Shown here: piece by piece, positions 1,863 to 27,989 of the stretch
How the letters are laid out: the number at the start of each line of letters is the position of its first letter
Numbering within the stretch: the stretch's first letter is position 1
NCBI GenBank assembly: GCA_964016885.1
Contig: CAXHJY010000762.1
Coordinates: 1-64,000 of the forward strand
From: Eledone cirrhosa
Lineage: Eukaryota
DNA length: 64,000 nucleotides
Direction of reading: 5' to 3'
Translations under genes and position numbers: made by a program
Notes under the pieces: model-generated
The model's database searches: none
What the model was told of the DNA's origin: nothing
What the model saw: the letters and a program-made list of their open reading frames with translations, nothing else

Positions 1863-2261
1863 TAAGTATGCATGTATACGTACATACATATATGTATACA
1901 GACGTACAGTAGCATGCACATATATATATATATACATATATATATACATATGCATACAGGTACACATACATATATGCACGTATCAGTTTAGCGGCGCTAA
2001 CGTCGCTTTGTTCGTTTGTAAACAAACTGAACAGCCTGAACAAAAAGGTGACGTGGTTGCCTTAACACCGTATGGCATAAATTCAGGCTGTTCAGTTTGT
2101 TTACAAACGAACAAAGCGACGTTAGCGCCGCTAAACTGATACGTGCATATATGTATGTGTACCTGTATGCATATGTATATATATATGTATATATATATAT
2201 ATATGTGCATGCTACTGTACGTCTGTATACATATATGTATGTACGTATACATGCATACTTA
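1863..2261. repeat. Fold-back inverted duplication at the 5' end of the array
   Basis: 1863-2040 is the reverse complement of 2082-2261, with a 41-nt spacer (2041-2081). The junction uses the tgaa/ttca 4-bp complementarity present in the unit. Confidence 0.95.
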
Positions 2262-5200
2262 CATTTAAGTAAGTGCCATACTAAGAGTGAGAAATGAAAT
2301 TTCGTTTTCATTTTGTTTCAATTTATCGTTTTCGGTATGCCTGACCGATTTAACTCACTCAATATGCAAATTAGGCTGCTCAGCCGTTAATTTCATAAGG
2401 AAAGTATATACTTTCGAACGTTCAACTATCTGGCAGATAGGTAAACGGTGCTGATGATAGCTAACAAGCTTGAAACTAGTACATCGTTCCTGTGTCAGTG
2501 TTGAACAAAAAGGTGACGTGGTTGCCTTAACACCGTATGGCATAAATTCAGGCTGTTCAGTTTGTTTACAAACGAACAAAGCGACGTTAGCGCCGCTAAA
2601 CTGATACGTGCATATATGTATGTGTACCTGTATGCATATGTATATATATATATATATATATGTGCATGCTACTGTACGTCTGTATACATATATGTATGTA
2701 CGTATACATGCATACTTACATTTAAGTAAGTGCCATACTAAGAGTGAGAAATGAAATTTCGTTTTCATTTTGTTTCAATTTATCGTTTTCGGTATGCCTG
2801 ACCGATTTAACTCACTCAATATGCAAATTAGGCTGCTCAGCCGTTAATTTTCATAAGGAAAGTATATACTTTCGAACGTTCAACTATCTGGCAGATAGGT
2901 AAACGGTGCTGATGATAGCTAACAAGCTTGAAACTAGTACATCGTTCCTGTGTCAGTGTTGAACAAAAAGGTGACGTGGTTGCCTTAACACCGTATGGCA
3001 TAAATTCAGGCTGTTCAGTTTGTTTACAAACGAACAAAGCGACGTTAGCGCCGCTAAACTGATACGTGCATATATGTATGTGTACCTGTATGCATATGTA
3101 TATATATATGTATATATATATATATATGTGCATGCTACTGTACGTCTGTATACATATATGTATGTACGTATACATGCATACTTACATTTAAGTAAGTGCC
3201 ATACTAAGAGTGAGAAATGAAATTTCGTTTTCATTTTGTTTCAATTTATCGTTTTCGGTATGCCTGACCGATTTAACTCACTCAATATGCAAATTAGGCT
3301 GCTCAGCCGTTAATTTTCATAAGGAAAGTATATACTTTCGAACGTTCAACTATCTGGCAGATAGGTAAACGGTGCTGATGATAGCTAACAAGCTTGAAAC
3401 TAGTACATCGTTCCGGTGTCAGTGTTGAACAAAAAGGTGACGTGGTTGCCTTAACACCGTATGGCATAAATTCAGGCTGTTCAGTTTGTTTACAAACGAA
3501 CAAAGCGACGTTAGCGCCGCTAAACTGATACGTGCATATATGTATGTGTACCTGTATGCATATGTATATATATATGTATATATATATATATATGTGCATG
3601 CTACTGTACGTCTGTATACATATATGTATGTACGTATACATGCATACTTACATTTAAGTAAGTGCCATACTAAGAGTGAGAAATGAAATTTCGTTTTCAT
3701 TTTGTTTCAATTTATCGTTTTCGGTATGCCTGACCGATTTAACTCACTCAATATGCAAATTAGGCTGCTCAGCCGTTAATTTTCATAAGGAAAGTATATA
3801 CTTTCGAACGTTCAACTATCTGGCAGATAGGTAAACGGTGCTGATGATAGCTAACAAGCTTGAAACTAGTACATCGTTCCTGTGTCAGTGTTGAACAAAA
3901 AGGTGACGTGGTTGCCTTAACACCGTATGGCATAAATTCAGGCTGTTCAGTTTGTTTACAAACGAACAAAGCGACGTTAGCGCCGCTAAACTGATACGTG
4001 CATATATGTATGTGTACCTGTATGCATATGTATATATATATGTATATATATATATATATGTGCATGCTACTGTACGTCTGTATACATATATGTATGTACG
4101 TATACATGCATACTTACATTTAAGTAAGTGCCATACTAAGAGTGAGAAATGAAATTTCGTTTTCATTTTGTTTCAATTTATCGCTTTCGGTATGCCTGAC
4201 CGATTTAACTCACTCAATATGCAAATTAGGCTGCTCAGCCGTTAATTTTCATAAGGAAAGTATATACTTTCGAACGTTCAACTATCTGGCAGATAGGTAA
4301 ACGGTGCTGATGATAGCTAACAAGCTTGAAACTAGTACATCGTTCCTGTGTCAGTGTTGAACAAAAAGGTGACGTGGTTGCCTTAACACCGTATGGCATA
4401 AATTCAGGCTGTTCAGTTTGTTTACAAACGAACAAAGCGACGTTAGCGCCGCTAAACTGATACGTGCATATATGTATGTGTACCTGTATGCATATGTATA
4501 TATATATGTATATATATATATATATGTGCATGCTACTGTACGTCTGTATACATATATGTATGTACGTATACATGCATACTTACATTTAAGTAAGTGCCAT
4601 ACTAAGAGTGAGAAATGAAATTTCGTTTTCATTTTGTTTCAATTTATCGTTTTCGGTATGCCTGACCGATTTAACTCACTCAATATGCAAATTAGGCTGC
4701 TCAGCCGTTAATTTTCATAAGGAAAGTATATACTTTCGAACGTTCAACTATCTGGCAGATAGGTAAACGGTGCTGATGATAGCTAACAAGCTTGAAACTA
4801 GTACATCGTTCCTGTGTCAGTGTTGAACAAAAAGGTGACGTGGTTGCCTTAACACCGTATGGCATAAATTCAGGCTGTTCAGTTTGTTTACAAACGAACA
4901 AAGCGACGTTAGCGCCGCTAAACTGATACGTGCATATATGTATGTGTACCTGTATGCATATGTATATATATATGTATATATATATATATATGTGCATGCT
5001 ACTGTACGTCTGTATACATATATGTATGTACGTATACATGCATACTTACATTTAAGTAAGTGCCATACTAAGAGTGAGAAATGAAATTTCGTTTTCATTT
5101 TGTTTCAATTTATCGTTTTCGGTATGCCTGACCGATTTAACTCACTCAATATGCAAATTAGGCTGCTCAGCCGTTAATTTTCATAAGGAAAGTATATACT

Positions 5201-26295: not shown

Positions 26296-27596
26296 TCTGC
26301 TGGTATTTGTTTATCATGACTGGCAAGTTTAAGTTGTTGTTGGCTGAGGAGTTGGATTATACAGACACCGGGCCCTGAAATACATGTTGAGACGCTGTTC
26401 AGTTATACTAAGGTATCATCAGTCACCAGAGATCAGTTCTCTGTCTTGATTGGTTGTGGTTCTTCCTTTCCAATCGTCTCAGTCATACTGCCCCCCCCCC
26501 CTCCCCCGGCAGGGTTAAAACTATTTTGTTACACACTCCAAATTCATTTCGTATATGCCAGCATGTGTGTGTGTGTGTATGCATATATATTTATATATGT
26601 TTGTAGTATGTATGTAGGTGTGTGTACATGTATGTAAGTATGTATTTAAGAATGTATGTATATAAGTTTATATATTGCATGCGAAAAAGAGACAGATGGT
26701 GATTGAGAGAGTAGGTGTGTGTGTGTGTGTGTGTGTGTGTGAGAGAGAGAGAGAGAGTCGGGCTGAGAGGATATTAAATATGTTGTGTGAAAGCCTGGAA
26801 AACTGACTGCGATTAAAAGGTAAAACATTTACAAATATTACTAAAACGAAAAACAAATATCAGAAATCCCGCCCCAAACCACACATACCATAAATGGATA
26901 ATGTAGGTATTGTGTATGAATCTCTCTCTATATATCTATGTGACAATGAATGGCACTGCATATGTGTGTGTGTGTATATATATATGTATATATACACCTC
27001 TCTCTATATATATTTAAATATAAGCATATATACACGTAAAAATACACAAACAATTTATCTATCTATATATGTAGGTATATAGTACATACATACGTACGCA
27101 CATACACAAGTACACACACATGAATGAACTCATTCTGTGAGTGAGACATACAGAAAATGGAAACAAGACGAAAAAAAAAAAGAAATGTTAACAGTGATAT
27201 ATAATAAGTGTTTGATAAAAGTCGCTGATGCTTTAGCTCTGTATTCCAAATCAATTTAGTTGATGTATTAAGGGATTTGAAAGACTGGAGTGTGCTCAGC
27301 TGGGCGTTGAAATTAGGTCTAACGCAGGGGTTAGTATAGAATAGTTTTATCGTCTCTGAAATAGAATTGCTCCTCCTTTATATGTGCATGTATGATAGTT
27401 ATGGAGAGTGTTGGAGGTAGGGAATGGACATAGAATGGGTTGAATAATAGGTAAAAAGCACTGTCGAGTCACAGAAGTATATCAGTTGAGGAATATACAT
27501 GTACAGACACATATATATAATCTATCTCTCAGTCTTTGTATATACAATATATTTATATGACATGTGTGTATGCATACTTAAATATATATATATATA

Positions 27597-27989
27597 TTTA
27601 GGTTTGAAGGTTCACCACTGGATAGAGCTGGAGGGCGACCGGCTAAAGTGGAAGATGCTAGATGGTCGGTCGTCCTCGGGTCTATGATTTTCAGCCCTAT
27701 GGATTTTATCTGTTACATTCATTTATTATATTTCGAATACCTGATGATATCACCGGATTCATACGGAACCCGGTCATTGAAATGATCATAGTATAATAAA
27801 CCTTTCAAGGATTTACACCAGTCCAGCCTCCTGTTATTTTATTATAATATTTAACTCCGTACTCGCACCACCAACTACACAAACGAAGACGGTTGAGCTG
27901 CTTTACGTTGAGTACTCTCCATATTATTACATCAAGATTGACCATACGGAATGACCAGCTCTATCCAGTGGTGAACCTTCAAACCTAAA
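27597..27989 (+). mobile_element. HHR-bearing element (family B, copy 2) with 35-bp terminal inverted repeat, in (TA)n
   Basis: 27597-27631 is the reverse complement of 27955-27989; internal hairpin 27631-27677 and HHR 27737-27794. Confidence 0.85.
27737..27794 (+). ncRNA. Type I hammerhead ribozyme (family B)
   Basis: ATAC CTGATGA tatcACCGG-attcatacggaac-CCGGTcatt GAAA TGATCA TA^ GTAT; stem I atac/gtat, palindromic atgatcat stem III, AUA triplet (cut after 27790). Confidence 0.8.

What the first reader, a model, noticed from the sequence alone, without database searches (positions are those of the whole stretch)
1863..27989. Several unrelated HHR families within 26 kb share TA-microsatellite targets, and most copies have inverted 5' ends
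Seen: three or four sequence-unrelated ribozyme-bearing non-coding families, every copy abutting (TA)n and most with a 5' inverted duplication, and no RT gene in the window. Inference: a guild of non-autonomous ribozyme retroelements parasitises a microsatellite-targeting RT, and could contribute to the extreme (TA)n content of this genome.
Basis: inference. Interest (0 to 1): 0.7.

Follow-up and report, generated by a model that had tools for sequence, protein, structure and literature searches.

The report
Penelope retroelement ends crowding TA repeats
Six unrelated small repeats with hammerhead-ribozyme folds sit in TA repeats in this stretch; two are short stubs of protein-coding Penelope-type jumping genes and two are non-coding passengers that likely borrow such an enzyme, so the pattern is mostly known biology, apart from a hairpin shared across families and a hint that fresh insertions may come with extra TA.

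Summary
Observation confirmed and extended. Positions 1863-27989 hold nine insertions from six hammerhead (HHR) families. All lie at TA-rich tracts and seven have an inverted 5' arm. Genome-wide, TA follows the 3' end in 25/29, 27/29 and 25/29 copies of families B, C and D, against 3/29 SINEs. Adjacent inversions occur in 11/27, 13/28 and 25/29, against 1/29.

The 'non-autonomous guild on one RT' reading is half right. D is the 3' end of an intact Hydra-clade Penelope-like element (PLE), with a known U3-A8 hammerhead that the window copies carry only in half. C is the 3' end of a second Hydra-type coding family. A (466-bp tandem retrozyme) and B (2-kb unit) are non-coding.

TA targeting, inverted 5' copies, two 3' ends and retrozymes are all published PLE traits. 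Less ordinary: B, C, D and about ten other families share a tail hairpin; 43% of sampled TA blocks end at a recurrent repeat end; the youngest D insertions carry longer pure TA (median 33 bp versus 12 bp). Net TA gain is not shown. This scan noted the short/long-end rule and the hairpin before, on other DNA.

The parts
1863..2040 (-). Family A inverted 5' arm, beginning at A's short 3' end
2037..7444 (+). Family A tandem retrozyme array, 466 bp x 11.6; type I hammerhead in each unit (cores at 2451, 2909 ... 7103; 7-bp stem I, palindromic stem III; predicted cut after 2481, 2939 ...); ends at the long 3' end (unit position about 310)
7441..12391 (.). 5-kb interrupted (TA)n array at A's 3' end
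13423..13538 (-). Family C inverted arm, starting at C's short 3' end
13538..13782 (+). Family C solo pLTR of a Hydra-type coding element; type I hammerhead 13567-13659 (core 13573, 62-nt branched stem II, predicted cut after 13653); tail hairpin 13711-13737
13785..13851 (.). (TA)33 shared tail-to-tail by C and E
13850..13997 (-). Family E copy: type I hammerhead (core at 13933) preceded by an inverted piece of its own tail
   Evidence: 4 other full-span sequences, 1 with a damaged core
17367..17563 (-). tRNA-type SINE copy, the family used as control; not TA-flanked
18398..18590 (-). Family D stub: 3' half of the U3-A8 hammerhead plus 80-nt tail of an autonomous Hydra-clade PLE; inverted arm 18538-18590 ends at the short 3' end; tail hairpin at 18469
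18644..18825 (+). Family F: another TA-ended repeat with an inverted arm; no hammerhead seen in the part present
19075..19261 (+). Family I copy: minimal hammerhead (no loop III), this copy mutated at G5 (19144); ends at a TA-rich tract
   Evidence: 20 distinct sequences
21760..21983 (-). Family B variant ending at the short 3' end; hammerhead core at 21862; no inversion
23554..23620 (+). Stub of a diverged D subfamily: half hammerhead with a short inverted arm
23698..23875 (-). Family D stub with inverted arm; tail hairpin at 23769
27598..27988 (+). Family B solo pLTR of a 2-kb non-coding unit: 34-bp inverted arm 27598-27631; type I hammerhead (core 27741, predicted cut after 27790); tail hairpin 27854-27915; long 3' end at TA

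Best explanation
These are ends of Penelope-like retrotransposons and of non-coding repeats that likely use their enzymes, and they sit together because they insert into the same (TA)n tracts. Shown: D is the terminal repeat of an intact Hydra-clade element (one frame with RT and GIY-YIG motifs); C follows a second Hydra-type endonuclease gene; A and B encode no protein. Every family has two fixed 3' ends 60-135 nt apart, each on an internal TA of the template. Inferred mechanism: the element's protein cuts both strands of a (TA)n tract. It binds a hairpin in the RNA tail and starts reverse transcription internally, at the long site from one DNA end and at the short site from the other, mostly on the same RNA. 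Joining the two short cDNAs gives the head-to-head inversion. Copying multimeric or circular RNA gives A's tandem array. B likely rides on a Hydra-type RT because it carries the same tail hairpin; A's helper is unidentified. Ribozyme cleavage was not tested and need not be required for insertion.
For: D linkage: 27/30 endonuclease loci; intact 784-codon frames in 3,531-bp tandems; 40 of 40 scored copies 100% identical over 195 bp. Hydra motifs RWR, DKT, CxCX5C, CxxC and CxH read from the frame. C: endonuclease frames in 7/30 upstream loci and homology in 5/5 selected extended loci. B: longest frame 110 aa in one unit; none above 134 aa and no Hydra homology in 30/30 leader loci, with the pLTR directly upstream in 22/30. 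TA and inversion statistics. Two 3' ends with TA loose ends in an independent DNA run. Inverted D arms end at the short site in 21/24 loci and match the forward arm's haplotype in 19/23 against 7.9 shuffled. Tail hairpin in B 29/30, C 29/30, D 25/30 and 28/3000 random windows. Two internal start sites, cleavage and extension of both strands, and HHR dispensability were shown in vitro for another PLE (PMC11167929).
Against: No RT core was found upstream of C in the 5 extended loci, so an intact C element was not seen. No partner was found for A, which lacks the hairpin. The hairpin pattern was defined after looking at B, C, D and E, so those counts are not independent; the independent support is 81 hits against about 50 in shuffles, and 36/81 near TA against 17.6% expected. 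Inversions are a minority in B and C genome-wide (11/27, 13/28). Within-family covariation is slight because copies are close, and B's hammerhead fold is 8 kcal/mol above its minimum. Pfam gave no hit for the D protein. There is no RNA evidence. The loci scored are the best hits to each query, not random copies.
Confidence: 0.85

Rival explanations
1. One reading: all families are non-autonomous ribozyme elements that depend on one microsatellite-targeting RT.
For: Shared TA ends and inversions; shared tail hairpin in B, C, D; A and B non-coding; most genomic D copies are short non-coding stubs.
Against: D and C continue upstream into two different Hydra-type coding sequences, 31-42% identical over the endonuclease region. 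A lacks the hairpin. The stubs are explained as truncation products of coding elements.
Confidence: 0.08
2. The elements make or lengthen the TA tracts: the RT adds TA repeats, or the cut duplicates them, at each insertion, so these families feed the genome's TA content.
For: The 22 terminal copies of the youngest D subfamily have a median of 33 bp pure TA at the 3' end, against 12 bp for 29 older copies (p = 0.002) and about 10 bp expected on one side from length-weighted targeting. 208/488 TA blocks, holding 56% of TA bases, have a recurrent repeat end. 3/13 A ends have at least 300 bp of TA-rich sequence, against 1/87 for B-D.
Against: A steep preference for long pure tracts plus later decay gives the same numbers. 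Blocks next to A-D (median 40 bp) are shorter than the length-weighted median of other blocks (144 bp), and A-D touch only 7.8% of TA bases. Some recurrent ends look like TA-target DNA transposons (by eye). The empty-site search gave 3 uninformative cases out of 82.
Confidence: 0.25
3. The inverted copies are MITE-like DNA transposons with terminal inverted repeats and a TA target.
For: B at 27598-27988 has 34-bp terminal inverted repeats between TA tracts.
Against: Inverted arms vary in length and are missing from most B copies. The 5' ends are variably truncated, 3' ends are fixed at two sites, units form tandems, and C and D join PLE coding sequence.
Confidence: 0.02

Closest known systems
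Hydra clade of C-terminal-endonuclease Penelope-like elements (Craig et al. 2021, PMC8557442; e.g. Hydra-1_Obim, Hydra-2_Amil)
   Same: Single frame with RT and C-terminal GIY-YIG; clade motifs; (TA)n insertion; hammerhead in the pLTR; partial tandems, inverted 5' copy and optional tail.
   Different: D is 3.5 kb with a 1.1-kb 3' UTR, has a U3-A8 core rather than a canonical one, and has a tail of about 80 nt rather than 30-40. It is very abundant (71,154 first-look candidates for its endonuclease region, all related families included) and apparently still active.
Non-LTR retrozymes of animals (PMC7229834; bioRxiv 10.64898/2026.07.22.740005)
   Same: A is a non-coding tandem unit with one type I hammerhead per unit and a palindromic stem III; such repeats are proposed to be non-autonomous PLE derivatives.
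   Different: A shows PLE-type fixed short and long 3' ends, inverted arms and TA targets, and carries an internal TA-rich microsatellite. No sister pLTR was found. B is much longer (2 kb) than the 51-972 bp reported.
U3-A8 and minimal hammerheads of PLEs (Cervera and De la Pena 2014, PMC4209133)
   Same: The U3-A8 core was reported in Schistosoma mansoni PLEs; family I matches the minimal type; A, B, C and E have short palindromic stems III predicted to need dimers.
   Different: D's motif has a long stem II and a 5-6 bp stem III with a palindromic loop, and its minimum-energy fold is the hammerhead itself.
Poseidon element of Anolis (PAc), in vitro mechanism (Frangieh et al. 2024, PMC11167929)
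   Same: Two internal RT start sites define the tail; both strands are cut and extended; AT-rich target; HHR not needed for insertion.
   Different: Different clade. Start sites here lie on internal TA dinucleotides, giving 2-3 nt of microhomology, and flank a cross-family hairpin.
Non-autonomous Chlamys elements such as MRC1 (PMC8557442)
   Same: Non-coding PLE dependents with pLTRs and head-to-tail copies, like B.
   Different: Those resemble their partners at the 3' end; B shares only a short hairpin motif with C and D.

Membership tests
Hydra-clade PLE (family D) | Single frame with RT and C-terminal GIY-YIG endonuclease | tested here: met
   784-codon frame with YRDD and a C-terminal YIG region; assigned from motifs and by eye against the published alignment; Pfam no hit
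Hydra-clade PLE (family D) | RWK, DKT, CxCX5C linker, CxxC and CxH motifs | tested here: met
   RWR, DKT, C-N-C-x5-C, CNLC, CKH read
Hydra-clade PLE (family D) | Placement in the clade by RT phylogeny | not tested
   No tree was built; published sequences could not be handed to the tools
Hydra-clade PLE (family D) | Hammerhead in the pLTR | tested here: met
   Variant U3-A8 type I motif in 39 distinct sequences: U3 33/39, A8 39/39, N7 variable; not the canonical C3-G8
Hydra-clade PLE (family D) | (TA)n insertion, tandem or inverted structure, tail | tested here: met
Hydra-clade PLE (family C) | Hydra-type endonuclease upstream on the same strand | tested here: met
   7/30 loci; 5/5 selected extended loci
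Hydra-clade PLE (family C) | Own RT core | tested here: inconclusive
   Homology reaches only residues 466-714 of the D protein in 5 loci
Non-LTR retrozyme (family A) | Non-coding tandem unit with a type I hammerhead in at least two consecutive units | tested here: met
   11 units in the window; core intact in 20/21 distinct sequences
Non-LTR retrozyme (family A) | Transcription, self-cleavage and circular RNA | not testable with these tools
   No raw-read RNA run was offered; the one RNA run laid 0 contigs on D
Non-autonomous PLE (family B) | No coding capacity; pLTR-type partial tandem with hammerhead | tested here: met
   core intact in 41/50
Non-autonomous PLE (family B) | Sequence similarity to an autonomous partner's 3' end | tested here: not met
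   No blastn similarity to C or D; only the short hairpin motif is shared; other coding PLE families were not screened
Hammerhead ribozyme (A, B, C, D, E, I) | Three-helix junction with the conserved core | tested here: met
   window D copies incomplete, window I copy mutated; no Rfam hit
Hammerhead ribozyme (A, B, C, D, E, I) | Self-cleavage | not testable with these tools
   Needs in vitro transcription
MITE / TA-target DNA transposon | Fixed terminal inverted repeats on all copies | tested here: not met
   Inversion in 11/27 B and 13/28 C copies, with variable arm length

The most novel reading that the evidence does not exclude
A dozen or more unrelated ribozyme repeats, coding and non-coding, plug into Hydra-clade enzymes through one conserved tail hairpin. 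These telomerase-related RTs add TA repeats when they insert, creating a feedback loop in which each insertion enlarges the target for the next and so builds much of this genome's 5.5% (TA)n.
Probability: 0.22. Interest if true: 0.72.

Novelty: new member of a known kind. Interest (0 to 1): 0.38.

Why it matters
The core pattern is published PLE biology, so the finding as posed is not new. Its value is practical. This genome holds an intact, apparently active Hydra-clade element, with non-coding passengers and a candidate recognition hairpin. That makes three open questions directly testable: how PLEs choose microsatellites, how the inverted 5' arm forms, and what cis-signal lets retrozymes borrow a PLE enzyme. 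If fresh insertions add TA, it would link a telomerase-related RT to microsatellite growth. It also warns annotators that short TA-flanked palindromes here are PLE stubs, not MITEs or SINEs, and that scans for CUGANGA miss the most abundant family.

Tried and rejected
Rfam: the E-value scan was swamped by miRNA-like hits on TA, with no hammerhead among the 150 of 732 rows shown; the gathering scan gave 0 hits. A strict hammerhead scan requiring the 10.1-11.1 pair missed A, B and C and gave one doubtful hit at 26339; the relaxed scan recovered only A in the window, so B, C, D, E and I rest on anchored alignments. I first read C and D as ribozyme-free and rejected that. The CTGAGGA at 13515 was rejected as a core. 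Ten-kb extensions upstream of B found only unrelated neighbours. The search for partners of A and B found none, but other coding PLE families were not screened. The empty-site search was uninformative (3 of 82 testable of 368 insertions), and laying DNA contigs on 26900-28700 showed no empty allele of B. No RNA evidence: only contig runs were offered, and the RNA run laid nothing. The arm-distance statistic was faulty (all zeros) and was redone. The loose inversion count (SINE 4/29) was replaced by the adjacent-only count. The protein atlas did not answer, so no language-model or structure comparison of the D protein was made. The scrambled hammerheads noted by other agents in this genome were not tested here.
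Full report
Setting. The window is the first 64 kb of an 81.5-kb contig in a 3.0-Gb animal assembly. Pure (TA)n makes up 23% of the window and 5.5% of a systematic sample of 59 x 10 kb from the large contigs (60 regions asked, one did not exist).

Observation. The interval holds nine insertions of six families with type I hammerhead folds. A is a 466-bp tandem array with 11 cores and an inverted 5' arm. B has two copies, C one, D three, E one and I one. A seventh TA-ended family, F, shows no hammerhead in the part present. A, B, C and D are unrelated in sequence. All nine insertions end at a TA-rich tract and seven have an inverted arm. Anchored alignments over the fetched loci gave 21, 50, 63 and 39 distinct full-span sequences for A, B, C and D. 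All 11 invariant core positions are intact in 20/21 (A), 41/50 (B) and 51/63 (C). D has a U3-A8 core: U3 33/39, A8 39/39, with the free position N7 taking all four bases (G15, C13, A8, T3), and its minimum-energy fold is the hammerhead. The window's D copies begin inside stem II and lack the first half of the core. Copies within a family are too alike for strong covariation. B's monomer fold lies 8 kcal/mol above its minimum. Rfam recognises none. Cleavage was not tested.

Controls. Among 29 best-matching genomic copies per family (the window's own copy left out), TA follows the 3' end in 25 B, 27 C and 25 D, against 3 SINEs; background is 6.5% in SINE flanks and 32% in the window. Adjacent 5' inversions occur in 11/27 B, 13/28 C, 25/29 D and 1/29 SINE copies; two B loci and one C locus ran off the fetched stretch. 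In the systematic sample, 42/59 A-D segments and 8/116 SINE segments end at TA.

What the families are. One D locus showed a GIY-YIG-type frame upstream. Searching with it gave 71,154 first-look candidates, and 27 of 30 fetched loci carry D on the same strand 0.4-1.2 kb downstream. Full elements are 3,531-bp tandems with an open 784-codon frame and D at each junction. All 40 scored copies of one subfamily are identical over 195 bp, which suggests recent activity. The frame has the motifs given for the Hydra clade; I built no tree, and Pfam gave no hit. C is followed upstream by a second Hydra-type endonuclease in 7/30 loci. Five of these, extended to 8 kb, all show homology to the D protein's last third but not to the RT core. 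B is a 2.0-2.2 kb unit in partial tandems, with no frame above 134 aa and no Hydra homology in 30/30 loci that hold its leader. A is always the same non-coding unit. So C and D stubs are solo pLTRs of coding elements, while A and B are non-autonomous. E and I were not traced.

How it most likely works. Each of A-D has two fixed 3' ends 60-135 nt apart, both downstream of the predicted cleavage site and each on an internal TA of the template. An independent DNA run shows TA loose ends at both D sites. Depth rises more than tenfold from stem II to the long end, so most D copies are such stubs (subfamily divergence upstream may add to the step). Bystander D copies start within or next to stem II in 27/32 cases. 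Inverted D arms end at the short site in 21/24 loci and share the forward arm's haplotype in 19/23, against 7.9 by shuffling. I infer double-strand cleavage of (TA)n and priming from both DNA ends at the two internal sites, mostly on one RNA, followed by joining of the two cDNAs. Fold-back synthesis from one cDNA is not excluded. This follows the in vitro behaviour of the Anolis element (PMC11167929).

Shared tail hairpin. Prompted by an earlier AI note (e1-9560118), I compared the tails. A stem closed by RCTCY and WGAGYRC lies between the two ends in B 29/30, C 29/30 and D 25/30 loci, in 28/3000 random windows, and not in A. The pattern was defined after seeing these families. Independent support comes from the systematic sample: 81 hits against 47-53 in shuffles, with 36 of the 81 within 110 nt of TA against 17.6% expected; by eye these cover about ten further families, and some hits overlap. 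By eye, the published coral Hydra-2_Amil tail has the G-C form of the same stem. This is the only link between B and a Hydra-type enzyme. I did not find the hairpin described in one search or in the main text of PMC8557442; that is a thin search.

Contribution to TA content. A-D abut 42/488 TA blocks and 7.8% of TA bases, and those blocks (median 40 bp) are shorter than the length-weighted median of the others (144 bp). Counting all repeats, 243/605 complex TA flanks recur as TA junctions elsewhere, against 14/784 control flanks; they touch 208/488 blocks and fall into 93 clusters. The comparison library was small and enriched for A-D, and some of these ends look like DNA transposons. The youngest D copies have longer pure TA at the 3' end (22 terminal copies of 30, the other 8 being tandem junctions; median 33 bp) than older ones (12 bp; p = 0.002) or the one-sided length-weighted expectation (10 bp). 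A ends also lie more often at very long tracts (3/13 against 1/87). Preference for long pure tracts with later decay explains this as well as TA addition does. Empty-site tests failed. The claim stays open.

Comparison with what is known. (TA)n insertion by Hydra, Naiad and Neptune elements, inverted 5' copies, tails and non-autonomous PLEs are in Craig et al. 2021, which also lists an octopus Hydra family with a hammerhead (PMC8557442: passages; section 11; supplement look-ups and part 52). U3-A8 and minimal hammerheads in PLEs are in PMC4209133 (part 1 of 4). Animal retrozymes are in PMC7229834 (passages) and bioRxiv 10.64898/2026.07.22.740005 (parts 1-3 of 5; its supplements were not seen and may list related families). 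Mechanism is from PMC11167929 (parts 1-2 of 4). PMC13282606 (passages) has no mention of ribozymes. Searches returned no paper that, by title or abstract start, tests TA gain by PLEs. The labels 'tRNA-type SINE', 'RTE-like', 'REL-type' and 'mariner-like' are recalled resemblances, not tool results.

Verdict. A real and well-supported pattern, made of new members of known kinds. Interest 0.38, carried by the cross-family hairpin, the active Hydra element and the testable TA-gain question.

Noticed in passing
window 18324-18354 and 18613-18643: 31 nt of flanking DNA are duplicated in inverted orientation on both sides of the D insertion, outside the TA tracts; fold-back copying of the target could do this and would also copy TA.
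   Followed up: no
window 30618-31226, 32253-32709, 53639-54186, 59415-59940: A repeat resembling an RTE 5' region (recalled) whose four window copies all meet TA at the same end; only 1 of 9 segments in the genome sample did so.
   Followed up: partly
window 12950-13380 (+): Decayed frame resembling a zinc-knuckle plus restriction-like endonuclease of a non-LTR element (resemblance recalled).
   Followed up: no
window 25900-26500 (-): Decayed frame resembling the C-terminal part of an RTE-type RT (resemblance recalled).
   Followed up: no
L171:354 (+), L241:952 (+): A second, compact U3-A8 hammerhead family, 5 hits among the fetched loci.
   Followed up: no
L131, L139, L190, L135, L051, L115, L164, L075, L082 and others: At least ten further type I hammerhead families turned up as bystanders in about 1 Mb of loci.
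   Followed up: no
family A unit positions 123-255; family C 3' UTR (L221, L099): A and C carry mixed TA/CA/TG microsatellite inside the element and so spread it when they move; a young D copy has inserted into A's internal tract (L356).
   Followed up: partly
L273: L307: An A-like retrozyme family with a similar layout but about 74% identity around the ribozyme and compensatory-looking changes in stems I and II.
   Followed up: no
L085: The two arms of one inverted D insertion come from different subfamilies, so two templates were used in at least one case.
   Followed up: partly
L123:8992-9852 (-), L168: Fragments of other Penelope-type coding families (non-Hydra by eye) near B copies but not joined to them.
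   Followed up: no
window 50350-59200: Long low-complexity trinucleotide and 16-bp tandem tracts give spurious open frames.
   Followed up: no
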